Positions 1-26,769 of a stretch of 31,731 nucleotides of DNA are shown piece after piece. Position 1 is the first letter of the stretch. Each line of letters begins with the position of its first letter. The notes beneath the pieces are model-generated. The model ran no database searches, was not told where the DNA came from, and was given only the letters and a program-made list of their open reading frames with translations. Source of the DNA: a virus (taxonomy: Duplodnaviria > Caudoviricetes); the IMG/VR virus record IMGVR_UViG_3300025696_000025, positions 1 to 31,731 of that record. One strand, 5' to 3'. The translations under genes and the position numbers were made by a program.

Positions 1-75
1 TATTGCACCAACAACTATTATGCTTATAGTTTTCAAGTCTAAAGTTACTTGAGTGTTTTCTGATATATTAGTCAT
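1..75 (-). CDS. Small probable membrane protein, 3'-truncated by the window edge (possible holin-like protein)
   Basis: Manual translation from ATG at 75 gives MTNISENTQVTLDLKTISIIVVGAI..., with a hydrophobic stretch starting at the edge. The leader is A-rich (TAAAAACT-ATG) directly after the previous stop. Confidence 0.6.
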   Translation of the reverse strand, partial: MTNISENTQVTLDLKTISIIVVGAI

Positions 76-302: not shown

Positions 303-3300
303 TTAAAATTCATCAAATGTTATCCCTCCGGATCGTTTTTTCTTTTTTGTAGTTTTCTTTTTCTTACTCTTTTTATTTTTCTCTATACCTAATTCCCAGT
401 CTTGCCAACCAGCTGCCATAGCTATTCTTTCCCACACATCATAATCCTCGTTTAAAGCGCCTTGTATGTTTTGCGACTTACGTAAAGCTCTATCAACCGG
501 AATATTTGTTGTTGCTGAAATAACGTTAGCCATAGCCATGTATGCTGGATTATCTAAACTAAACTTCATGTCATCAAATGCTCCATATTCAGCTGCTTTT
601 GATGCGTTTACTAATTTCTTATACTTAGATCCCACGGTTGGAGATATGCTAACTATTTCTTTAACAGCTTTAGAGTATTTAGGATTCTTCTTGCTAGACT
701 CACTGTTTATAACCATAAGAGCATTCTTCACTTGAGCTGTTATTGCTCCTGGTATACCAGTACCTCTAAGTAATGAATCAGCCATACCATTAGCAACTCT
801 TCCTGATTTAGACAATAATTTTTCATCTTGCTCATCATCAGCGAAAGCTAAGCCAAATAAAGCATTTTGCACTACATTAAATATTAAGTTCTGCACAAAA
901 CCGTAGTAAACGATTTTAGACGTGTTTTCTCTCCAATCACCTCTTTTATTAGCAAGGTCTAACATAGCTTTTTTCTGCAACCTAGCATACTGCATTGGTG
1001 TATTAGCAAAAGCTAAAACAACTCTACCTAAGTTACTAGCCTGTTGTTGACTTATCTTGTCTGTTCCAGATGACTGTTGAGATTTTTCAGATATATCCTT
1101 AAAATCTAAAAAAGCTTTTTCTTTAGCCTCTACCTCAGATAGCCCTTGCTTTTTATAAGTGTTTATTCTATTTCTATAGAAAGTCGCACCACCTGAAGCT
1201 ATAGCAAAACTATCAGCGTATTTAGTAAATACAAAACCTTTTTTTAGTATTGTGTTTATTATACCTCTAGCACCTGAATCAGCAGCTATTTCAGCCTCAC
1301 TTACATTTAATTTTAATCCATCACGTCTAGCTGTTAAGTAGTCAGAGTTCATTATCTCTAAGAAATCTTTAGAATATTGCTTTACATCTACCAACCTAGC
1401 ACTAGCTTTTAAAGGATTGTTATCTGTCCAGTTTATAAAGTTTATACTAGATAACGTCTGTAAAACCGCAGATCTAGTGTTTAAAAACATTATGGCACCT
1501 ACAGAATTATTTATATAATCTAAAGCTCTATCACCCGCAGTGTTTTGTGAACTTCTATTTTTACCAGACTGCATCCTTTCTAAAGTACCTTCTAATGCTT
1601 TTCTATATTTCTTACCATAAGCTGCCTCTAGCTTATTCAAATTAGCTTCTGAAAATATTTCATCTTTATTTTGCTTCCACTGCTCTAAGTACTTAGCTCT
1701 TTTAACTTTACCAAGCAATGTTCTAGCATCGCTAGTTAACGTACCACTAAGCCAGTTTTTACCTGGTTCAGCCCAGCCATCACCTTTAGTTGTTGACAAA
1801 AGTTCATTAGCAAAAGCTTCATATGTTGGGTTATCTTTTATAACTTTATTTAGTTCAGCTAAATCAGATTTGCTTAAACCAGGAACTTCTACACCCATTT
1901 TTGTCCACATGCGAACTCTTAAAGCTTGCTCGTTAGTAAAACCTGTTTCATTTTTCTTTCTTAGTTTCTTAGGTATTATACCTAGTTTATTTTTTAAAGC
2001 TTTAACATCGTTAGCTAATGATATTTGATCTCTAATAATATTATCCTCAGCTCTAGCAAATGGATCAAATAAGTTTTCTTTGTAGAATTTAAGTGCCTGT
2101 TCACCTTTTTTACCTTTAGGTAGAGTCTTGTATAACAAACCAGCAAAATCTTCAGCAGTAGGTGATATAAATATATCAAATCTACCCTTACCTTTACCCA
2201 TTATTTCAGCCTTAGCTGATCCAAACGTTTTTTCTGAAGCTATGCCTGTTTTTTCCTGTATTATATCGTTAAATGTTTTTCCTAACTTTTTGCTAAATTT
2301 AGCTTGCTGAACTTTACTTTTAACATCTACTACACTTAATATTTCTTTAACAGCTCTAACATTTCCTAAATGATCATCAGCAAAGTAAAAATCATTGTAA
2401 CCGTCAGCCGCTTTATCTATCATCCATCTAGCTTTAGCTTGCGGAGTACCATCACCTAGACCTGTTATGTTTTCCAGTGGAATATTTAATCCCATGCTAT
2501 CTAAAAACTCTTTTATAGGTCCAGCAGCGTCAGCTGGTCTAGCAGTTAATACAAACATGTCTCTTTTACCTGGGCTTTCACTTATGAACTTAGCTACATC
2601 AAACAAAGGTCCTTTAGCACCTTTCATAACTTTACTAAACTCAGAAAAATCCCACTCAGCACCTTTAGCCTCAAGCTCACCTGCTCTTTTTGCAAACTCA
2701 GTAGCGGTTAAAGACCCTTTCTTTCCATCAGGCATTTCATACAACACATTACTTTTAGTTGTAGCTAATGTATCATCAAAATCAAATACTCTTATTTTTT
2801 TAACAGGAGATTTAAGGTTTCTAGCTATAGATAAAGCTTTATCTATTTTACTTAAGTTTTCTAAAGACTCTTCATTAGATACTTTTTTAGAAAATCTAAG
2901 AATTTTAGGTGTATTTTCATTATTTACTAAAGTTGCTTTTGTTATAACATCAGCCAACTTAACGTATTCGTTAATTAAACCTTTAGCTTCGCTTCTAGTT
3001 ACAGTGTTTAATCCTTCTAGTAAACCAGCCTCGCTTAATATAACAGATTCCATTATTTTATTCTGTTCTATTACAACATTTTTATTTTGCTCAAACTTCT
3101 TAGGTACAACTACATTATACTCCTTAGCCTTAGTTTCGTTACCTTTATATATATTGTTTGGATTTAAACCTACGTACTCATTTTTAGCATTTTTATACGT
3201 ATTAAAGTATCTTAAATCAGAGCTAGGAACTTTGTCCCAATCTTCTTTTTTACCAGACTCTACAGCTTTATTAAGTTGCTTCATCAACACTGGATGAGAT

Positions 3301-6300
3301 GTTCCACCTGAGTTAGACCACTTATTTCCCTCAGAGTCTACTAAATTTCCTTTTAAGGTGTCATTTTCATTCTTTAAAGTATACTGTATATAATTATCTT
3401 TTATCCACTTTTTATAATACTCTAATGATTGTTTAGCGTTAGGTTTTCCTTCTATAATATTCTTATACAACTGCACGCGTATATTAGCATGTTCAATAGC
3501 TTGAAAAACGTGCTCATCTGTTGTTTCTTTTTTTCTTTCTAAAGCTCCTACCTCTCTACCTATAGCTGTTGCTTGATTTCTATTAGCATTTGCATTTAAA
3601 CTAGGGTTATATATATACTCTCTTAAAACAGCAAAATCCTCAGGACCTGTTTTAGCAATAGCTAATTCTGCGTCTATTTGAAGATCTACACCTTTATCAT
3701 GTAGCTTTTTTAATTGTAAGTTCTTTTTCCAACTAGGACCATTTTTACCTCTAAAGGATTCTTTAAAAGCTTCTAGCTCTTTATCATTAAAACTTCTCTC
3801 ATTCTTCTTAGCATCCTCTTTAACTTTAGTTAAATTTATTAACTCGTCATTAAGTATAGCTTGCTCAGCCTCAGTCCTAAGCTTTTTATCAACTATTCTT
3901 CTAGGATCTGATATAATATCAAAACCTCTCTTACGCAGCGAGCTGATTTTATTGCCTGACGTCCAGTTTGTTGGTCTAGCAAATCGATCAACTGGTAGAA
4001 ACTTAGGAAAAGTATTTACTAATACCTTTTGCTTGGCGACTCTATCCGTTCTAATTTTATTTAACGCTTTTTTATCTACCTTAGAGTCTAGTTTTGCTTG
4101 ACCAGATTCTTTTCTTTTCTGAAATTTAGCACCAGCCTGTATTCTCTTACCTTGTTCAGGTATTAAAGTTTCTAACGCTCTATTTCTTATATGAAAATCT
4201 AACGCTGCTTTTATATGCTGAGCATCTCTATATATTGGTTTTTTCTTACCTTCACTGTCGAGTTGATTAAACTCGTACTGCTTACCATCATACCCTTCTA
4301 GTGTGACGTTTTTACCCTTTATTATATCTGTATATGTTTTTAAACCACCAGTTAATTCACCTGCCTTATTGTATAATACCTTACCTATCTTTGTTTGTAA
4401 TATTCCAGTAGCTTTACCAGTGTCATCCTTACTTCTAGGTAATCTAGCAAAATCCGATGCTGCATTATCTATTAAAAACTGTCTAGCTCTAACAGCTCCT
4501 TGTTGATCAAGTTTTTGTAAGTTTCTTTGTTTTTCTATAAGAGCAGAGACTGTTTTTATACCAAACATGTCTGCATAAAGCTGCGCTAATTCCTGAGGTA
4601 TTTTACCAGTCTCTTTAAATCTACTAACTGATCTATCTTTAAAAGATTCTTTTACAGTACTAGATATCTTATCCTCAATAGCTTGTTTTTCACTCTTGTC
4701 AGTGTCTAAGGATTTTTTAAACTCTGGAGATATATAGTTAGATTTGAATTTAGTTGTTTCTGTAGGTTTTTTAGCCAACTTATCTACAGCAACACTGGTC
4801 TTAGTAGATGTGTCTACAATTTGTTTAGCTTGCTCAGAATCTGTACTAGTTCCATCTAGTTTTTTCTCACCTATGTTTTTAGCTCTTTCTAATATTTCAG
4901 CTTGTCTTCTACCAAGAAAATTTGGACCTAGAACTGTAGTTACCTTACTTTTCTCTGCATCAAAATCTTTTAAAAATTCTTTATTCCGACCTGGAAATAT
5001 ACCTTGAAGTTGCTCCTTTACAGCTGTCTTGACAGACTCTATAGGTATAGAACCTGTTGGGTTAAACTTTATAGAGTTACTTATAACTGGCCAATTAGCC
5101 TCTACTATAGCATCTATAGCTCCAAACTTTTCTTCAGGTTTAGAAGAAGGTGAGTTTATGATATCAACTAATTGCTCGTTTTCTATAAGACCTTCTTTGA
5201 ATAAATCTATATATTGCTTACCTTTAGGTGATATGTCAGAGTCCCGTCTACTTATCGACTTTGAAGGCTTTTGACCCTCTACCTGAACACCTTCAGCAGC
5301 TATTGAGATATCTTTAGCAGCTTGTATACCTTTTTCTTCTCCTTTAGAGTAGCTCTTTATCAGCTCAAACAAGTTTTTACCAGTGTCAGCATTTAACTCC
5401 AGTTCTGGCATACCTTTTTTACGTAGAAATGGAACAAACTTTTCCATAGCGTTACCTACGTTTTCTTTAAACACTATACTTTTTTCTGTTATAGCATCTG
5501 ATAAAACAGTTAAATACTCTTCATAGTATTTACTAGCATCTAGCTCCTTACCTTTAGAATCATATCTGTAGTTATCGTCAATACGTTTTTGAACTAATTC
5601 TTTTTGCTTAGGAGTTAACTCATTTAAAACATCGTCAATTAGTTTTATACCTTCTTCAGTTACGTTACCAGTTTTATCTTTAAAAGAATCTCTTAAAACA
5701 AAGTGTCCAGCCTCGTGTTTATCTACAGTTATATTTCTAGTTTCTTTAACTACAGCTTCATTTACATAATATACCTTATTATTAGGATCGTAAAAGCCGT
5801 CAGTTTGTTTAACATCTTCTTTACCATCAAAAACTTCTTCATATTTTTTCTGAAAATCATCAACAGATCTAATTGATACGGACTCACCCTCTTTAGTAGC
5901 ACCTAACACATCCTCAGCTTGAGCTTTGTTTTCTTGTCTTTGTTTTAGGTAGTATTGATCTAGTTTGTCTTGTAGTTTATCGTACTTGTAACCTCCAGGA
6001 TTATAAGCTTCAAGGTCTTTTGTTAAAGACTCTAGCTCTTTTTCCTGTCCTTGATTTTTATTTTTTATGTTTTCAAGAGCCTTTACCTTACCTCCTATCT
6101 CGAAATACTCATCAATAAACTTATAAGATTCTGCTCTTTCTTTAGTACCATAGCCAGCTTTAAAGCTAATATTGTTATTTAAAATATCTTCAATAACAAA
6201 TTCTCTATTCCAGAGACCGTCAAGTGATTTAGAAGAAGGGTTCGCACCCATCCTAGCATAAATTATAGGTAGAGGAGTATTAACTAGAGCATTATTATCC

Positions 6301-11473: not shown

Positions 11474-13129
11474 TTAGTAAGCAGATGTCACATAGTCTGA
11501 GGACACCGCGAATAATTCAAGTGGTAAACTTCTGTTATCACTATCTGATTTTATTGTAACTGTTGAATAATACCCTTTAACACCGGTCATACTAGCTCCA
11601 AATACAACTTCTCCAGTTGTAGCTGGACTAGAGTTGACTAGATTAGCGTAGTATTTACCTTCTTTATTATCAAATCCAGCATGCACCGTAACTCCATAAT
11701 CTGGATCTGTATAAGCACCATCATCGAAACTAAGTACCTTGTTAGCGGTATCATTAAGCTCAAAACTTCTAGCCGCATTAAAGCTTGATACTTCCCAACC
11801 ATTTGATCCTTCGTAATTTATAGTTTTAAACACTTTTGAAGTACTAGGATTTGGGTTGAATATAAACTCTATTGATGAATTATATTGAACACCATATAAG
11901 TTGTTTCTGCTAGATATGTGATCGTAATGTTTCCAAAGCTTACCGCCGTTTACTGAATAGTAACAACTACCTAAACTAAAAGCTTGCTCTGGTTCATAGT
12001 TAAAAAAGCTTGTCCAACCAAGAACAGACTCGTCAAAAGAAAGTGTTTCGTAATCAAAGAAGTTTATAGTTTCTCCATTACCTATTGTTTGTGCTTTGTT
12101 TACTGTTATATCTAAGCCATTTACCTCTGTAACTATTGTACCAGTTTTTAAGCTATTACCTCTAACCATTAAACCTACAACAATACCTTCTGCTGTATCT
12201 ACAGGTATAATATCACCTGTCACAGCGCTTGTCGTAGTTGTTACTAGAGTAGTTGCTGCTTCTTGCAAACTAACAACATACTGTTTATTGTGTATGTCCC
12301 AAGCTCCATAAGATTTTCCACTTTCAGAAGTAGTATCTAATGAAGATAATTCATCTCTAAAGTAATCAATCATACCATAGTTAGATATCTCCGTTATACC
12401 ATCTCTAGATAATCTACCTACGATGTTCCTTCTCTTGTCTGTAAAGTATTTTCTGTAGCCATACACCGCAAAACTTTCTGGATTTTTACTTATACCGAAG
12501 TTTCCAGCGTAAGGTATTATCTGACCTATAACCAGGTTTGATGAAGTAACACTACCACCTCCTTCAGCGGAGTATATAGCGTCTTTATCTATAAGTGCTC
12601 TGTTTATTTTGTCTTCTTGAAATATTATAAGGTTTGTATCTTCAGCGTATAGTTTTTGTATACTACCATTAGCTGGATCAACAGATTTAGTTATATCTTG
12701 ACCAACGTTAAATACATTAGTATTATTAATACCTGTTCTAGAGTTAAATATACCTGAATATATTAAAGAGTTAAATCTAATAGATGAATTAGGTTCTGTT
12801 TCAACTAAATATGCTCTAGCACCATAACTAATGCTAGTATTATTAAAACCACCTCTTATTCTAGATTCTTCAACATACCAGCTAGTAAACGGCACATCTG
12901 GAGCTGGAGAATTTTGAACTAAAGTTCCTTCTTGAATAGTACCACCATTAGGCCAAGTACCAGTAGGGTTTTGTGGAAAAGAACCAGCCAAGCCATCCGG
13001 CACACCTGTAGATCCATTCCATGCGGCTGATACAATTCCTTTAGCCGTTTGTATATTGACTGGAGCATGAAGTACTGTCTTTTTCAAAAGAAAAGAATTA
13101 AAATATTTTACTTCTATAGTTGCTGCCAT
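11474..13129 (-). CDS. Tail stabilisation/nozzle protein, C-terminal-type half (P22 gp10/crAss muzzle-like beta-propeller)
   Basis: Motifs SLIYSG, GSIQKL, NFGISKNPESFAVYG, YFTD, GITEISNYGM, GWTSFF and KVFKTINYEGS are characteristic of crAss-like stabilisation proteins. Confidence 0.7.
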   Translation of the reverse strand: MAATIEVKYFNSFLLKKTVLHAPVNIQTAKGIVSAAWNGSTGVPDGLAGSFPQNPTGTWPNGGTIQEGTLVQNSPAPDVPFTSWYVEESRIRGGFNNTSISYGARAYLVETEPNSSIRFNSLIYSGIFNSRTGINNTNVFNVGQDITKSVDPANGSIQKLYAEDTNLIIFQEDKINRALIDKDAIYSAEGGGSVTSSNLVIGQIIPYAGNFGISKNPESFAVYGYRKYFTDKRRNIVGRLSRDGITEISNYGMIDYFRDELSSLDTTSESGKSYGAWDIHNKQYVVSLQEAATTLVTTTTSAVTGDIIPVDTAEGIVVGLMVRGNSLKTGTIVTEVNGLDITVNKAQTIGNGETINFFDYETLSFDESVLGWTSFFNYEPEQAFSLGSCYYSVNGGKLWKHYDHISSRNNLYGVQYNSSIEFIFNPNPSTSKVFKTINYEGSNGWEVSSFNAARSFELNDTANKVLSFDDGAYTDPDYGVTVHAGFDNKEGKYYANLVNSSPATTGEVVFGASMTGVKGYYSTVTIKSDSDNRSLPLELFAVSSDYVTSAY

Positions 13130-13164: not shown

Positions 13165-16100
13165 TTAAGGTATTGGAGTAAATTTAACAAAAAACTTTCT
13201 TCTACTAACTAAGTTAATTGGGCTACCATTGTCAGACACCACTAGAGAGAAGCTACTGTCAAATCCTGGAGTTGTACCCGTGAAAGGATTAGTATTTACT
13301 ACAGTTGTACCGTTTTGTATTTCAAAAACCCCAACACCCCGACTCCACTCTATAGAGTATGTTAAATTATCTCCTTGTCTATTTCCACTAGCGTTAGATC
13401 CATTAATACCTGTTATTGTTTGTATTACTATTGAACCACCAAATCCAAAAACTTCTATTTCATTATTAGGTATAACGTTCGTTATAGTTGGTGTTATATT
13501 TATCAATGGTTGATTAAACATAGAAACAGTATTTTGAGCGTCTCCCGGGTTTACTACTGTAACAAATTTGTAGTCAAAAATATTAGCAGGTGTATTTGTT
13601 TTGTATAAGAAGTATTCACCAACAGCTACTTGTACCTTAAATGTACCGTCTAGGTTATCTATAAGAGTAAACTTAGATGTTACGTCTTCAAGAGCATCAT
13701 CGGTAACCGTCATTACAATACTATCGAAGCTAGCTATATCGTTACCTAGTATATCTATAAACTTGAAATTAGTAGTTATATCATCTCCAGGTCCGTTCGC
13801 TTCAGAATGATTATATTGCCAATCAACGATCTGAGCTGCTTGAGGACTACCTTGTGATGCTATTGCTATGTTTAAATCAGATATTAAGCCTGATGTTGAA
13901 GTTTCCCAATATATATCTAATCTTGATTCTGTAGGTTTTGTTTCGAATATATTTATATTTTCAAACCTTTGATATGTTTGGTTTGGTACGTATGGTAAAT
14001 TTATTAAACCAAATTGATCTTCTACTACATTAGATGTAACAAACTCTGCCACAAAAGGATTTGATTCTGATCTAAAGAAAGCATAGTAAGGGCTGTTAGG
14101 ATCAGTTACTGGTATAATATCGGTACCTCCTTGGCCATAAAATTGAAGTACGTCGAAAGAATCAAATAAGTCTTCTATTTGGTTTACAGTAAAAGATTTT
14201 CTTTCTGGAAAATACTGTTTACTACCAACAGTGTTAAATTCTGACGCTGTGTTTTCAACTCTACCAAATAGCTGAACAGAGCTTCTAAATTGTTTATCTT
14301 GAGCACCTACTTCTGATAAATCTCTTGGTATTTTATTTATGTTGTCGTTTAAAAGTGTTATAAATGTAGCGTTTTCATCTCTTAGCGGTATACTTCCAGT
14401 GTTATAATACGGTAGACCTTTCATAGCTCCAGCAGTATATACGTTGTAATAGTCTTGTTCTGTTTGTTTTACAACTATCTTGTAAGAATACCATCCAAGT
14501 GGATTATAATCAAGACTAGTTACATCTGAATTATACAAACCAGGTGTACCAGTTGTTTCGTTCCTGTCTATACCAACACCACTAAGTATTGAGTTAAATA
14601 ACATTTTAATGGAGTTTCCTGAAAAATCTATAGAATTGTTATTTGGGTTATATGGTAAATAAACTGTGTCGGCTCCAAAACCACCAGCACTAGCTTCACC
14701 AACGTTGTTAGATAATATAACCGTTGATTGTCTACCAAATTTATCTGATAAAACAACTCCAACTTGATAGTTTCTGTTTTCTTTTAAGTTGTGATTTGGA
14801 TATTCTACAGTTGTTAGAGATGATCCAACCGATGAAACTTGTGCTTTAGTAGATGCAGCAACTTGGTAATCTATAAAGTTAGGCGGTGTGTGTTTATCTT
14901 GAAAATTACCATAAATAACTCTATTGCTGGAAACTTCCTGACTTAAAGCTTTTACTGGTATTTTATCATAAACCCTTATTATTTCGTCACTTGGAAGAGT
15001 TTTATAAGGTTTTTGTGATAAATAAGTATAATTAAGTACGTTTTCATTTCCTTGTATCTGTGAAACAGGTATTGTTTCAATAACCCTAACAGCCGTAGAG
15101 TCTGATTCTTTATATATAATATCTATGTCTGTTATTAAATAACTAGAAGATAAGTCATCAACCGCAGACGGAAGAGGTATCTGTAGATCTATTTTGTTTA
15201 CTTTATTTTCCATAAAGCCAACAATAGTACTAACAGGTGTTTGCTGCTCATCACCAAATATAAAATAACCATCTTGTTTAGGTATAAATGCTTCTTGAGT
15301 AAAAGGAGCTAATATAGAGTATTCACCATCAACAAATCTAAATCTATAGCTAAATCTAATAAATTTATCTTCTAGGTATTGAGGATCACCTGGAAAATCT
15401 TGCTCATAATAGGGGTTTTCTTTATGAAAAAATAATTGATTATCATCTAGTAGTGTTTGATTTTGACTAACAACTAATTCACCTTCATCACTCGCAGCTC
15501 CCGGAGTAAAACTAACAACTGTAGTGCCAGCAACAATACCCCCACCGGTGACAACATCGCCAGGGCTTATAAAACCTTGAACTTTATCAATATCAAAAGT
15601 ATCTGTATTTACTACAGCCGCATCGTCCACGTAAGAAGTTCCTAAGCTAGGTAGTAGCTCACTGAAATTATCATACATTGTAGTTTCTAAACCTACAAAA
15701 TTAATATTTTCTGAGGTTGAAGATATGGTTTGAGGTTTATTAACTGTTATATCTAAACCATTAACAGCTGTGACATATGTATTAGTTGCTATTTCTAAGC
15801 CAGTAACACCTAAACCAGAGCTTATTCCAGTCGCATCAGCCACGGAGAACGTTTTGCTATCTGTAACAGTAGCTGTTGCATTTGTAGTTACTGTTGTTAC
15901 TCCAGTAGTTTCGCTTGGTTTGAATAGCTCTATTGATTGATAAGGATTATATTTAGCTACAGATATTTGATCCTCATTAACGTAATATACTGGATCTGTA
16001 AGTTCAGATGGATTTGCTAAAGTTGTGTTTATTTTTCTAGGTTGATTTCTATTATCTGTCCAGAATAGTAAATTTTCTAAAATATTTACACCTATAATAG

Positions 16101-18510: not shown

Positions 18511-18524
18511 TATTTTATATTTAA

Positions 18525-18557
18525 ATATATGGAGCGGTTTTACCCGCCCCTATATAT
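18525..18557 (-). terminator. Intergenic RNA hairpin (terminator or processing/stability element)
   Basis: Minus-strand GGGGCGG-GUAAAA-CCGCUCC forms a 7-bp stem with one G-U, extendable by AUAUAU arms. Only a weak U-tract follows. Confidence 0.5.
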
Positions 18558-18568
18558 TATTACCTGTT
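18555..18568 (-). promoter_or_regulatory. Repeated intergenic motif AACAGGTAATAATA (candidate phage late promoter)
   Basis: 13/14 identical to 13135-13148. Confidence 0.4.
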
Positions 18569-19397
18569 AATTAATCTTTTTATCTATAGATTTATAAATT
18601 TCAACACCTTCATCTGTTTTTAAGAAGTATGCAAATGCTGAATAAGGATTTTCATCGAAAGGAACCTCCATTAGTTTTCTTCCGTTGCTAGCCCAAGTGA
18701 AGTATCTTTGATCATCTGATAATCTTATGATACCAGCCTCGGTAGCTTGTATTGCAAAATTCCTTAATTGCACGTTCTCATCATTAGCTAAATCTAGGAA
18801 CAAACCTGGACTCATCTTTGCAAACAGTAGCAAGTCTCTTTTAAGCTCCTTAGAACTCATCTTAGATACCTTAGATCCTAACTCAACCCTTAATATTGCT
18901 TCAGCATGGTCTATATCCATACCTCTAGCAGCATTTAAAGCATCAATCTGTAGCTCTAATATATCTAATTCATCTTCTGCTATTTCAACTTGATCTAATT
19001 CGTTATATAATCTGTTTTTCAAGGGGTGATATAGAGATAATATCTTTTGAAGATTTTGTTTTTCTTTTGGAACAAATAACGCACCGTCCTTAAATATAAT
19101 GTGACCTAAGGTTGCTTCACCTTGTTGCTCTTTTACAAATGGCGAAGGTTGGTTTGTTGCATATCTTATTTCTTTTTGTTCACGACTATCTTTATCAAAA
19201 TACAGTAAAGCATGTTTTGAAGTATGTTTGCTGGGTATTGTAAATGTTAATGGTGATTTGTTAGAGTTTAATATATATGTTCTATCTTTTATTTCCCAAC
19301 TTGGTTTAGCTGGTTGTGTTTTTGTAGGAGTTTTTACTACTACTTTTTGCTGAGGAGCAACCTCAACTTTATTTGCTGGTGCTTTTTTTGCAGCCAT
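18567..19397 (-). CDS. Conserved post-capsid protein (276 aa; structural or assembly role by synteny)
   Basis: Lies immediately downstream of the MCP gene. It has a low-complexity K/P/A N-terminus followed by a globular region (EIRYATNQPSPFV, HIIFKDGALFVPK). Confidence 0.6.
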   Translation of the reverse strand: MAAKKAPANKVEVAPQQKVVVKTPTKTQPAKPSWEIKDRTYILNSNKSPLTFTIPSKHTSKHALLYFDKDSREQKEIRYATNQPSPFVKEQQGEATLGHIIFKDGALFVPKEKQNLQKILSLYHPLKNRLYNELDQVEIAEDELDILELQIDALNAARGMDIDHAEAILRVELGSKVSKMSSKELKRDLLLFAKMSPGLFLDLANDENVQLRNFAIQATEAGIIRLSDDQRYFTWASNGRKLMEVPFDENPYSAFAYFLKTDEGVEIYKSIDKKIN

Positions 19398-24540: not shown

Positions 24541-26769
24541 TTATTTTATTATTTTTGAAATACTTCCGTTGTTGTCATATCGGTTAAAAGATAATTGCAC
24601 TTTTCTCCTCTGTGTTCTATATACTGGTGAATACTTATTTTTATTGCAAGCCATAGCAGCAAGTCCAGAACTTATCGTAGCATCATGCTTTGTTCTATTG
24701 TTTATATTAAATCTTGCCCAGTCTTCTAATGTTCTTTGAAAATACATTTGACCGTAGCCTTCACCTGTGTAGCCAACGTGATCTTCTATGTATGTTTCAA
24801 TAGAAGCCGCATGAGCTTGTTTTATATCCTCGCTAGAGTTTGGTATTCCACCAATTTCCTTTTCAGTTACAGATAACTTATTGTATGCTTTATCAGGTCT
24901 ATTTATAGAGAAGTTTCTATAACCTCTTCTTTTTAAATAGTACAGTAATCTTGGTTTGTTGTTCTCTGCTAGTATTGGCATTCCATAAAAATGCAAAGCC
25001 ATAAGCACGTCTTCAAAAAATATCTCAGCTGTCTGAGGTCTAGCTATGTATTCTAAGAAAAACATATTAGACGGAGCATTATCCATATTAAATTTAGTTA
25101 AACCGTGCAGAGATCCGTTAGAACCTCTCTTGTCAACCGTACCTGATATATCATAGCTATCACATCCAAAAGCACCTATATGCTCGCTACCTGGATATTT
25201 AAGGCCATTTTTAACAATAACATTGTTTTGTAAGTTCATAGACGGAATCCACGATACATAAAACCTACCATTGTTATTTGGTTTAAATTCAACCACTGTA
25301 TCTTTTACATCACCTCTCCATTGAAAACTACCTCTTGTGACTAAACTTTTATTTCTAACTTCTTCATTGTAATCTATCTGCTCGTATATCTTAGTTAGAT
25401 TATATAAAGATAATTTTGCTTCATCTCTAAAAGCATGTTTCTCTGTTCTTGGAAACTGACGGTAGTATTCGTTTAATCCATCTTGATCACTCTTTAAACC
25501 ATCAACTTCGTTCTCCCAATGCTCTATTACTCCTGTTGTAATTATGTCACCCGCTGGATCTACTGCTTTATCTTTTGGCGTATCGAATACAGGTAAGCCA
25601 TAAGCGTCGATGAATCCTTCGTAATTCCATTCCATAGGTATGAACAAACTATATAATCCTGAGCTAGTCTGTCCGTTGCGGTTTCTCTCCCTGACGTCTG
25701 AAGCATAATATAATTTTTTAAAATTAGCACCACCTTTGTCTAAAGCGTTTGAGGTACTACCCATCATACATTTACCAACTATCTTTTTACCTAATCGTAA
25801 ACAAGTTTTTGTAACTCTCCAGTTATTTAGTATGTTATCAGGTCTTTCCCACTTACCACTTTCATCGTGTACTAGTATCTTTAGTTTCTCACCATCGTAC
25901 GAGTTGTCCCCGGTGTTCTTCCAGTCGATCGTTGTGTCGAGCCCCTGTTTATCCTCTGACGCGATACCCTCGTCGAGTTTCTTACGGGTAAGTTTCGAGG
26001 CTGGGACCCTATAAGCGAGTTCTGTCTTCGGCCTGTCCATACCGTCCTGGATCGGCTTGAAGAAGAAGGGATAATTAACCGAGATGGGGACGACCTTATC
26101 AGTAAACATCTTTTTAGCGTCTTGTCCTGACTTTGATAAAATGCCAAATCTTGAATCTGTGGATATTGTAGCAAGGTTAACCGCCTCACTTGATGCCATG
26201 AAAGAGAAACCTGATCGTCTGTTCTTAAGATAGCACATTCCGTAACACCGTACATCCGCTTTACAAGCTTCCCAGAAGATAAAGAATAATCTGTTTGATT
26301 CTCTATAGTCTGCTGCCCCAACATCAATCTTGGACCACTGCAAGAACATATAGTGAGTACCAGTAATATAATTGCTATTACCATTGTTTTTGAACCAAAA
26401 ACCCTGCTCCCTTCTCTTAAACTCTTCATCAATATAGTCATACCATTTTTCTTTAAACACGTTAGGGTATTTCTCCCAATCAAATACACTCTTTATTTTT
26501 AAAAGCTCTTTAGGATAATCTAACTTCTCCCATTTTTGTTCTTGCTTTTTATTAGAGCGTTTATATACCTTTTCAGGTTCCAAAGGTAATCCTATGACCA
26601 AGTTCTGTATTTGTATAACATCACCTAGAGTACCGTCCTTACTGATAATGACTATGTCATGCTCAATATCATAACCATAACTCCATTTTTTGTATCTGTT
26701 ATTTTTCTTTACAATACCTGGTTTTATGTAGTCGTCAAGTGTTTTTACTAATGTTTGCTCGTACATCAT
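24541..26769 (-). CDS. terL: Terminase large subunit (742 aa)
   Basis: Walker A-like YLKNRRSGFS, Walker B ILVHDESGK, coupling motif MMGSTSN, and RNase H-like nuclease residues AFGCDSYD, LAENN and KHDATIS. Confidence 0.93.
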   Translation of the reverse strand: MMYEQTLVKTLDDYIKPGIVKKNNRYKKWSYGYDIEHDIVIISKDGTLGDVIQIQNLVIGLPLEPEKVYKRSNKKQEQKWEKLDYPKELLKIKSVFDWEKYPNVFKEKWYDYIDEEFKRREQGFWFKNNGNSNYITGTHYMFLQWSKIDVGAADYRESNRLFFIFWEACKADVRCYGMCYLKNRRSGFSFMASSEAVNLATISTDSRFGILSKSGQDAKKMFTDKVVPISVNYPFFFKPIQDGMDRPKTELAYRVPASKLTRKKLDEGIASEDKQGLDTTIDWKNTGDNSYDGEKLKILVHDESGKWERPDNILNNWRVTKTCLRLGKKIVGKCMMGSTSNALDKGGANFKKLYYASDVRERNRNGQTSSGLYSLFIPMEWNYEGFIDAYGLPVFDTPKDKAVDPAGDIITTGVIEHWENEVDGLKSDQDGLNEYYRQFPRTEKHAFRDEAKLSLYNLTKIYEQIDYNEEVRNKSLVTRGSFQWRGDVKDTVVEFKPNNNGRFYVSWIPSMNLQNNVIVKNGLKYPGSEHIGAFGCDSYDISGTVDKRGSNGSLHGLTKFNMDNAPSNMFFLEYIARPQTAEIFFEDVLMALHFYGMPILAENNKPRLLYYLKRRGYRNFSINRPDKAYNKLSVTEKEIGGIPNSSEDIKQAHAASIETYIEDHVGYTGEGYGQMYFQRTLEDWARFNINNRTKHDATISSGLAAMACNKNKYSPVYRTQRRKVQLSFNRYDNNGSISKIIK
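25560..25706 (-). CDS. Candidate second overprinted ORF (48 aa) in the +1 frame of terL
   Basis: ATG at 25706 is preceded by AAAAAATTATATT, the same ATTATATTATG context as two real genes. Translation: MLQTSGRETATDRLAQDYIVCSYLWNGITKDSSTLMAYLYSIRQKIKQ*. Local GC is about 44%. Confidence 0.35.
   Translation of the reverse strand: MLQTSGRETATDRLAQDYIVCSYLWNGITKDSSTLMAYLYSIRQKIKQ
25881..26429 (-). CDS. Overprinted putative lipoprotein in the +1 frame of terL (start at 26441, 26429 or 26384)
   Basis: The frame is open from 26492 to 25881. Hydrophobic VIAIILLVLTI is followed by CSC (lipobox-like, Cys at 26342-26340) and the tail is Arg/Ser/Thr-rich. GC is 53% over 25891-26100 and falls to 32% just past its stop. 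Confidence 0.65.
   Translation of the reverse strand: MKSLREGSRVFGSKTMVIAIILLVLTICSCSGPRLMLGQQTIENQTDYSLSSGKLVKRMYGVTECAILRTDDQVSLSWHQVRRLTLLQYPQIQDLAFYQSQDKTLKRCLLIRSSPSRLIIPSSSSRSRTVWTGRRQNSLIGSQPRNLPVRNSTRVSRQRINRGSTQRSTGRTPGTTRTMVRN

What the first reader, a model, noticed from the sequence alone, without database searches (positions are those of the whole stretch)
25881..26492. Hidden lipoprotein-like gene overprinted on the terminase ATPase domain
Seen: the +1 frame of terL is stop-free for about 203 codons, the only long same-strand nested ORF in the track. It encodes (MKSLREGSRVFGSKT)MVIAIILLVLTICSC-SGP..., a hydrophobic core ending in a lipobox-like Cys, and finishes with an Arg/Ser/Thr/Pro-rich tail. 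The ATG at 26384 has the context AAAACAATGG, the same as the real gene starting at 13129. terL wobble positions are codon position 2 of this frame. GC is 53% (111/210) over 25891-26100 and falls to 32% (58/180) immediately past the nested stop, as expected from dual-coding constraint. Established: nested +1-frame lipoproteins exist in phages (lambda Rz1 in Rz), but I know of none inside terL. Inference: this could be an outer-membrane lipoprotein for lysis (o-spanin-like) or superinfection exclusion, co-expressed with DNA packaging. No C-terminal transmembrane segment is present, so it is not a unimolecular spanin.
Basis: partly seen in the sequence, partly recalled or inferred. Interest (0 to 1): 0.88.

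Follow-up and report, generated by a model that had tools for sequence, protein, structure and literature searches.

The report
Lysis lipoprotein gene hidden inside terminase
A marine phage keeps a second reading frame open inside its DNA-packaging motor gene, and related phages carry either this hidden frame or an ordinary lipoprotein gene among their cell-bursting genes, so the hidden gene likely encodes a membrane-anchored protein that would help break the host's outer membrane.

Summary
The +1 frame of terL is open for 203 codons; the longest run in 20,000 resamplings was 146. It is open in 57 of 81 related loci where 0.1 are expected. In open loci, silent terL sites keep a hydrophobic leader and a polar tail, and the GC patch follows ORF length. 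A second clade moved the leader and Cys about 15 codons upstream.

The open frame and a stand-alone lipoprotein gene of the lysis cassette exclude each other: 0 of 54 open versus 17 of 24 closed contigs carry it. All 10 new lipoprotein-bearing contigs were closed, as predicted. That gene usually abuts an i-spanin-like gene, whose start lies at the window's left end, 26 kb away.

Best reading: a de novo, overprinted o-spanin-like lipoprotein standing in for the ordinary one (0.55). Translation, lipidation and lysis are untested, the lipobox is imperfect, and some complete open genomes lack a recognisable partner. ATG 26384 is not conserved; 26441 is likelier. T7 already has ORFs nested in terL. 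The scan found this gene, and the either/or pattern, before on other DNA.

The parts
25881..26441 (-). Nested gene in the +1 frame of terL, 186 aa from the likely ATG at 26441; the stop-free frame reaches up to 26492
   Evidence: start usage in relatives; gene callers called 186-aa homologues elsewhere
26340..26441 (-). Predicted signal peptide: basic n-region, hydrophobic h-region (about 26384-26351), Cys32 (codon at 26348) and Cys34 (codon at 26342)
   Evidence: h-region hydropathy z +2.2 in open loci versus +0.5 in closed; T at four-fold sites 0.87 versus 0.52; Cys coordinates
25884..26139 (-). Basic, Ser/Thr/Pro/Asn-rich, predicted disordered tail; coincides with the GC3 island
   Evidence: Last 85 aa: 19 K+R, 1 D+E, 41% S/T/P/N; pLDDT below 50; GC3 follows ORF length in relatives
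24541..26769 (-). Host gene: terminase large subunit, 742 aa; the nested ORF lies over terL codons 110-295
   Evidence: phrog_6681, E 1e-167; 44% identity to Elemovirus terL
1..75 (-). 5' end of the i-spanin-like gene (ISL: N-terminal membrane segment plus acidic coiled-coil-like domain), cut by the window end; no stand-alone lipoprotein gene lies between it and the giant gene ending at 303
   Evidence: ATG at window 75; full gene in G095, which is 99.9% identical to the window here

Best explanation
The +1 frame inside terL is kept open by selection and likely encodes an exported lipoprotein that would act as the outer-membrane half of a spanin-like lysis pair, in place of the ordinary lipoprotein gene that closed-frame relatives carry in their lysis cassette. 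Shown: selection on the frame, on a hydrophobic leader and on a polar tail; either/or occurrence with the stand-alone lipoprotein (SAL); and SAL's place next to the i-spanin-like gene, endolysin and holin. Inferred steps: (1) ribosomes start at 26441 on the late terL message; (2) the protein is exported, lipidated at Cys32 or Cys34 and sent to the outer membrane; (3) its basic unstructured tail binds the acidic periplasmic domain of the type II inner-membrane protein ISL; (4) after holin and M15 endolysin act, the pair fuses or disrupts the membranes. The gene probably arose once by overprinting near the base of this phage group. It decays where SAL is present.
For: Open over terL codons 129-250 in 57 of 81 loci where 0.10 are expected; six control windows gave 0 of 73-77. 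Leader hydrophobic (z +2.25, 72 of 72 type-A open loci above their null) and tail polar (z -3.0, 0 of 72 above). Clade B: 28 of 28 loci have G-S-C behind a different selected h-region (z +2.4), while the usual h-region is polar there (z -1.3). Among 78 contigs with ISL and a scoreable terL, SAL is in 0 of 54 open and 17 of 24 closed. Tree simulations gave 0 of 23,124 with no open SAL carrier, and a Pagel-type likelihood ratio was 39.7 on 4 df. In records at least 90% complete, SAL is in 0 of 21 open and 5 of 6 closed (with states). Prospective test: 10 of 10 new SAL contigs that hold terL are closed (13 searched). SAL was the strongest of 20 neighbour clusters (0/36 versus 15/19). 25 of 29 SAL loci have ISL or the M15 endolysin within 2.5 kb, and in 6 SAL lies between endolysin and holin (families). 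Both proteins are basic and predicted unstructured, and ISL's outer domain is acidic (18 D+E, 10 K+R in 60 aa). Lambda Rz1 is likewise unstructured (PMC6139136, passages).
Against: There is no evidence of translation, lipidation, localisation or binding. The type-A lipobox is imperfect: the first Cys is forced by terL, the second is in 57 of 72 open loci, and only 5 of 72 have Ser before it (mostly Thr), against the consensus [LVI][ASTVI][GAS]C quoted in PMC6139136. ISL was found in only 7 of 13 records at least 90% complete. Of the six without it, five were inspected: G108 has an analogue, while G101, G122, G135 and G011 show none by an insensitive heuristic. 7 of 24 closed contigs lack SAL: four keep the leader with a first stop at codon 197-231, two are 53% complete, and G145 (89%) is a real exception. 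The strict independent-pairs test is not significant (6 pairs, about 4 same, 0 opposite, p about 0.125). Neither SAL nor ISL matches any spanin profile. The G002 SAL has no Cys after its lipobox and the ISL alignment shows none in the outer domain; only 21 of 526 pairs lack Cys in PMC6139136. A few open genomes carry other lipoprotein-like genes (G027, G109, G135). The basic charge is partly forced by the frame (inference from the code).
Confidence: 0.55

Rival explanations
1. It is a real envelope protein that replaces SAL in the lysis module but is not a fusion spanin. It could be a lysis-timing regulator, an endolysin helper, or a cationic outer-membrane disruptor that needs no i-spanin.
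For: The same either/or pattern and cassette position. ISL is missing from several complete open genomes. The tail is selected for composition rather than sequence, with synonymous divergence 0.50 versus 0.35-0.39 elsewhere, and ends anywhere from codon 251 to 326, which fits a charge-based action.
Against: SAL most often directly precedes or overlaps the 5' end of a type II membrane coiled-coil gene, the pairing by which two-component spanins are recognised (PMC6139136 section 15).
Confidence: 0.22
2. It is a late lipoprotein that blocks the phage receptor or superinfection, as T5 Llp or Cor do (recalled), and SAL does the same job.
For: Phage lipoproteins with this role are known (recalled). 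Fast divergence of the mature part (median 43% identity to the window's protein) would suit a host-interaction protein. Late expression fits the protection of released progeny.
Against: SAL sits with ISL, endolysin and holin. No Pfam or PHROG match. An unstructured tail selected only for polarity is a poor receptor-specific plug (inference). No sign of a separate promoter or transcript was found.
Confidence: 0.13
3. The protein is exported but not lipidated: an uncleaved inner-membrane anchor or a signal-peptidase-I product of young, loosely defined function.
For: The lipobox is non-consensus in most type-A loci, the first Cys is forced by terL, and the second Cys is lost in 15 of 72.
Against: Clade B rebuilt leader plus G-S-C at another place. 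There terL carries Cys or Arg after Met127 (28 loci), whereas the 17 loci with Met-Asn have a stop at that site. The gene it alternates with has a clear lipobox.
Confidence: 0.07
4. No protein is made from its own start. The open frame and GC patch come from recombination with a GC-richer phage, from a DNA or RNA signal, or from a programmed frameshift of terL.
For: Start codons vary among relatives. Databases hold terL/+1 chimeric proteins.
Against: GC3 is raised in 56 of 57 open but 7 of 24 closed loci. Over codons 275-295 it is 0.64 where the ORF extends that far and 0.27 where it stops earlier. All 57 open loci have an ATG, GTG or TTG ahead of the h-region, 53 of them ATG. The chimeras switch frame at different places, as assembly errors would.
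Confidence: 0.03

Closest known systems
Embedded o-spanins: lambda Rz1 in Rz (PMC6139136, passages and section 15) and T7 18.7 in 18.5
   Same: Out-of-frame nested gene with a lipoprotein-type leader and an unstructured mature part; a type II membrane coiled-coil partner candidate, holin and endolysin exist in the closest relatives.
   Different: The host gene is terL, not the i-spanin. The partner candidate lies 26 kb away, whereas the largest separation in that survey was about 1 kb, and the survey says larger ones could not be detected. The mature part is about 153 aa with 7 Pro, against 40 aa with 10 Pro. No sequence similarity.
T7 genes 19.2 and 19.3
   Same: ORFs annotated inside the terminase large subunit gene.
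   Different: 85 and 57 codons, annotated hypothetical; a different terL family; I did not test them for selection or signals.
SAL, the stand-alone 140-150 aa lipoprotein of closed-frame relatives (alignment A2; no family name)
   Same: Leader plus Cys, basic S/T/P/N-rich unstructured tail, alternates with the nested gene.
   Different: Not homologous (hhalign probability 0.4%); it has a conserved core, a clear lipobox and its own gene in the lysis cassette.
Pachyviridae, Pervagoviridae and Elemovirus phages of Flavobacteriia
   Same: terL 32-44% identical, with the same GroES-terminase-portal-capsid order in phi13:2, phi38:1, elemoF and Panino.
   Different: The +1 frame is closed in all five cultured records examined and in MW202828; no cultured phage with the open frame was found.

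Membership tests
Overprinted gene | Alternative frame open beyond chance and conserved | tested here: met
   0 of 20,000; 57 of 81 against 0.10 expected
Overprinted gene | Selection on the second protein at sites silent in the host gene | tested here: met
   leader hydrophobicity, tail polarity, GC3 following ORF length
Overprinted gene | Younger than the host gene, no homologue outside the overlap | tested here: inconclusive
   Closed in outgroups. The 16 of 45 database hits read are terL +1 products or chimeras. Only near-length proteins were searched; the full-library profile search never ran.
Overprinted gene | Translated | not testable with these tools
   No proteomics or ribosome profiling; RNA-library contigs cover the region but cannot show frame or level
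Bacterial lipoprotein | Basic n-region and hydrophobic h-region | tested here: met
Bacterial lipoprotein | Lipobox [LVI][ASTVI][GAS]C | tested here: inconclusive
   Window I-C-S-C deviates at -2. Most type-A loci have Thr at -1. Clade B has I/T-G-S-C in 28 of 28. No signal-peptide predictor was available.
Bacterial lipoprotein | Lipidation and signal peptidase II cleavage | not testable with these tools
   Needs experiment
Two-component o-spanin | No C-terminal membrane segment (rules out u-spanin) | tested here: met
   One hydrophobic segment only; tail polar
Two-component o-spanin | Type II inner-membrane partner with coiled-coil-like periplasmic domain in the genome | tested here: inconclusive
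   Present in the window's species and its four closest relatives; found in 7 of 13 near-complete records
Two-component o-spanin | Gene embedded in, overlapping or adjacent to the i-spanin gene | tested here: not met
   26 kb apart in the window; met by SAL, the gene it alternates with
Two-component o-spanin | Sequence match to a spanin family | tested here: not met
   No Pfam or PHROG hit for the nested protein; no spanin hit for SAL or ISL
Two-component o-spanin | Binds the i-spanin and is needed for outer-membrane disruption | not testable with these tools
Receptor-blocking lipoprotein (Llp/Cor type, recalled) | Blocks adsorption when expressed | not testable with these tools
   No family match; needs experiment

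The most novel reading that the evidence does not exclude
A gene born de novo inside the terminase ATPase region serves as the o-spanin of a large group of marine Bacteroidota phages. It pairs with an i-spanin encoded about 26 kb away, has re-evolved its lipoprotein signal at a second position in one clade, and is swapped repeatedly against an unrelated ordinary lipoprotein. That would be a fourth spanin gene architecture and a natural, repeated case of a de novo protein doing an essential job by composition alone.
Probability: 0.5. Interest if true: 0.88.

Novelty: new variant of a known kind. Interest (0 to 1): 0.78.

Why it matters
Many phages appear to lack spanins because searches look for a lipoprotein next to a type II membrane gene; PMC6139136 says widely separated pairs would be missed. 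This case shows where such a gene can hide and how to find it. It also gives a testable case of de novo gene birth with a function suggested by gene swapping: two unrelated proteins, one overprinted on an essential motor gene, alternate at least nine times on the tree. The group is abundant, with about 14,000 stored IMG/VR stretches matching this terL region, so annotation misses a probable lysis gene in many marine phages.

Tried and rejected
Family and atlas searches of the nested protein found nothing useful (best atlas score 0.90 to an unnamed cluster, recognition below threshold). AlphaFold2 models of the nested protein (mean pLDDT 39) and of SAL (45) were too poor for a fold search.

RNA-library contigs seemed deeper over the nested ORF at 90% likeness. 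At 97% two of the three covering runs were roughly flat and one showed a two- to four-fold bump; contigs cannot give levels, so I do not use this. A Bacteroidota promoter motif (TAnnTTTG, recalled) upstream was no commoner in open loci (30 of 93) than in closed (23 of 57).

General suppression of synonymous change was not found outside the leader. Recombination and programmed frameshifting were rejected. Homology of the nested protein to SAL was rejected. A second neighbour family leaned towards open genomes (14/36 versus 0/19), but it is a membrane-protein family absent from most open loci. ISL and SAL have no match among GenBank phages.

Literature: three searches returned no paper (terminase + overprinted + spanin; overlapping gene + terminase large subunit + lipoprotein + alternative reading frame; gp19.2/gp19.3). 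Five more gave listings whose titles and abstract starts do not describe this gene. Subscription papers and supplements were not seen.

Full report
Setting. The window is a 31.7-kb virus record holding the late genes of a podophage-like virus on the minus strand: terL at 24541-26769 (phrog_6681), portal, capsid and virion genes. Its nearest named relatives are Elemovirus, Pachyviridae and Pervagoviridae phages of Flavobacteriia, at 32-44% terL identity, and one spring-water record at 63%. The Bacteroidota host is inferred from these.

The observation. The +1 frame of terL has no stop from 26492 to 25881. Resampling terL's synonymous codons 20,000 times from the phage's own usage gave a longest run of 146 and a median of 51, and no other of the 17 genes has a same-strand alternative run above 64 codons.

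It is a gene under selection. I took the best 80 of 600 scanned IMG/VR matches to this terL region (70-99% identity). With the window, 57 of 81 have no +1 stop over terL codons 129-250. Each locus's own codon usage predicts 0.10 such cases, and six equal-length control windows gave 0 of 73-77. The 24 closed loci have about the expected number of stops (4.1 against 4.9). A second scan seeded with a distant terL gave 23 open and 33 closed among 56 new loci, scored over codons 150-250.

Silent sites show what is selected. Over codons 128-139, four-fold sites are T in 87% of cases in open loci, 52% in closed and 49% outside, which makes the +1 segment hydrophobic. Over 151-250 the +1 product is more polar than its null (z -3.1 against -0.3). 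GC3 is raised there in 56 of 57 open but 7 of 24 closed loci. Over codons 275-295 it is 0.64 in the 26 loci whose ORF reaches that far and 0.27 in the 31 that stop earlier. This explains the GC patch and rules out recombination with a GC-richer phage. Synonymous divergence falls only in the leader (0.32 against 0.49 in closed loci) and rises in the tail (0.50 against 0.35-0.39), so the tail is held by composition, not sequence.

Start and signal. All 57 open loci have a start codon between the last upstream stop and the hydrophobic core, 53 of them ATG. I therefore read a 186-aa precursor with a basic n-region. The lipobox is the weak point. The first Cys comes from terL Met141 and is present in closed loci too. 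The second is in 57 of 72 type-A open loci and is mostly preceded by Thr.

Independent support comes from clade B, at 59-71% terL identity. I first reached it through a +1 protein, which biases towards open frames, and then re-sampled it with a terL query. In 28 of 28 distinct loci the frame carries G-S-C about 15 codons further upstream, behind a different, selected h-region (z +2.4, 26 of 26 scoreable loci above null), and the usual h-region has become polar. On a terL tree built outside the overlap, clade B is one group, the deepest ingroup rows are open type A, and closed loci are nested among open ones (140 rows, root support only 86). One origin, one leader shift and repeated loss is the simplest reading. 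The five cultured relatives examined and MW202828 are closed.

What it does. The complete closed genome G002 has a stand-alone lipoprotein (SAL, 145 aa) overlapping the start of a 96-aa gene with an N-terminal membrane segment and an acidic coiled-coil-like domain (ISL). The open genome G001 has ISL without SAL. I fetched the best 80 of 243 ISL loci and could score terL in 55: 35 open without a nearby lipoprotein, 1 open with an unrelated one, 15 closed with one, 4 closed without. Whole-contig profile searches over 140 records, including 60 chosen by an unrelated virion gene, found no SAL in any open contig.

Over 78 contigs with ISL and a scoreable terL, SAL is in 0 of 54 open and 17 of 24 closed (Fisher p 5.5e-12, not corrected for kinship; two of the 17 are weak matches checked by eye). 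On a 77-row tree (G027 left out as too short) SAL changes 9 times. Simulations of SAL independent of the frame never gave zero open carriers in 23,124 kept runs, and a four-state model preferred dependence (LR 39.7, 4 df). The strict independent-pairs test had only 6 pairs and was not significant. As a prospective test, 13 new SAL contigs were searched; 10 held terL and all 10 were closed, with 2-8 stops; some of the 10 are near-copies. SAL was the strongest of 20 neighbour clusters.

SAL is a lysis-cassette gene: 25 of 29 loci have ISL or the M15 endolysin within 2.5 kb, the other four end at a contig edge, and in six SAL lies between endolysin and holin. The window's own species fits. G095 is 99.9% identical at the window's left end and has ISL but no SAL match in its 47 kb (73% complete), and ISL's ATG is at window position 75. 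The near-complete close relatives G097 and G098 have ISL and no SAL, and a heuristic scan flagged the nested ORF as the only lipoprotein-like gene in G097 and one of two in G098, which also has holin- and endolysin-like genes.

Results against. The SAL profile was built from closed genomes and could miss other lipoproteins; G027, G109 and G135 are open and carry unrelated lipoprotein-like genes. Seven closed contigs lack SAL. Four keep the leader and stop at codon 197-231, so they may still make a shorter protein; two are half-complete; G145 is unexplained, as is the large closed clade. ISL was found in 7 of 13 near-complete records; G108 has an analogue, four others inspected show none. No spanin profile matches either partner. 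The nested protein and SAL are not homologous, and both fold only as a leader helix plus low-confidence chain.

Comparison. PMC6139136 (passages, section 15 whole) defines two-component spanins as a type II inner-membrane coiled-coil protein plus an outer-membrane lipoprotein. It describes Rz1 as unstructured, knows embedded, overlapped and separated architectures with at most about 1 kb of separation, and says more distant pairs would be missed. SAL and ISL have that anatomy and arrangement. The nested gene has the anatomy but fails adjacency and family-match tests, so I say it likely works like an o-spanin and do not file it as a member. T7 has ORFs 19.2 and 19.3 inside terL, annotated hypothetical. 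PMC8776804 (passages) reports only unimolecular spanin candidates in other flavobacterial phages. Passages of the LambdaSo preprint and PMC10136315 added only general background. My eight answered literature searches showed no description of this gene.

Earlier scan notes. The scan noted this gene on other DNA several times. Two notes state the either/or pattern; I saw them, after my own result. They are not counted as support.

Verdict. A real overprinted gene (about 0.95). Exported and lipid-anchored (about 0.75). A stand-in for SAL in lysis (about 0.77). An o-spanin in the strict sense (0.55). New variant of a known kind; interest 0.78.

Noticed in passing
window 1-75 (minus strand); G095 14113-14373: Start of the i-spanin-like gene ISL, cut by the window end; in G095 it is followed by a 106-aa secreted-looking protein with a weak thioredoxin match.
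   Followed up: yes
L210-L289, around position 1300-3700: Conserved cassette of unknown function beside the lysis genes: a roughly 400-aa secreted-looking protein with no Pfam match (54 of 55 loci), ISL, a thioredoxin-like protein with a signal peptide (52 of 55) and an M15 endolysin (45 of 55). The 400-aa protein could be an outer-membrane partner.
   Followed up: partly
L222 3146-3502 and relatives: A small membrane-protein family near ISL occurs in 14 of 36 open and 0 of 19 closed loci.
   Followed up: partly
window 2467-3297 (+ strand): 276-aa antisense ORF opposite the 2804-aa virion gene; no Pfam or PHROG match; probably a shadow frame.
   Followed up: no
G011 549-965; G135 51821-52243; G108 18516-18875; L222 3679-4044: A two-membrane-segment plus coiled-coil protein in several open genomes, including the two near-complete clade B records that lack ISL; a possible alternative inner-membrane partner.
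   Followed up: partly
L279 1779-2492; L287 548-1297: Unrelated 114-115 kb phages without this terL carry ISL, the 400-aa protein and a Tyr/Trp/Asn-rich lipoprotein in the same cassette; a possible source pool for SAL-type genes.
   Followed up: no
G029, G164, G017, G035 terL codons 197-199: Apparent transitional states: leader still largely intact but stops at codons 197/199; three of the four carry SAL, G035 does not.
   Followed up: partly
window 11474-13129: Virion protein with a crAss muzzle C-terminal domain (PF25729, E 1e-14).
   Followed up: no
P0005, P0010, P0012, P0013, P0024, P0033, P0038, P0043, P0045: Database proteins that switch between the terL and +1 frames at different places; likely assembly indels read through by gene callers.
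   Followed up: partly
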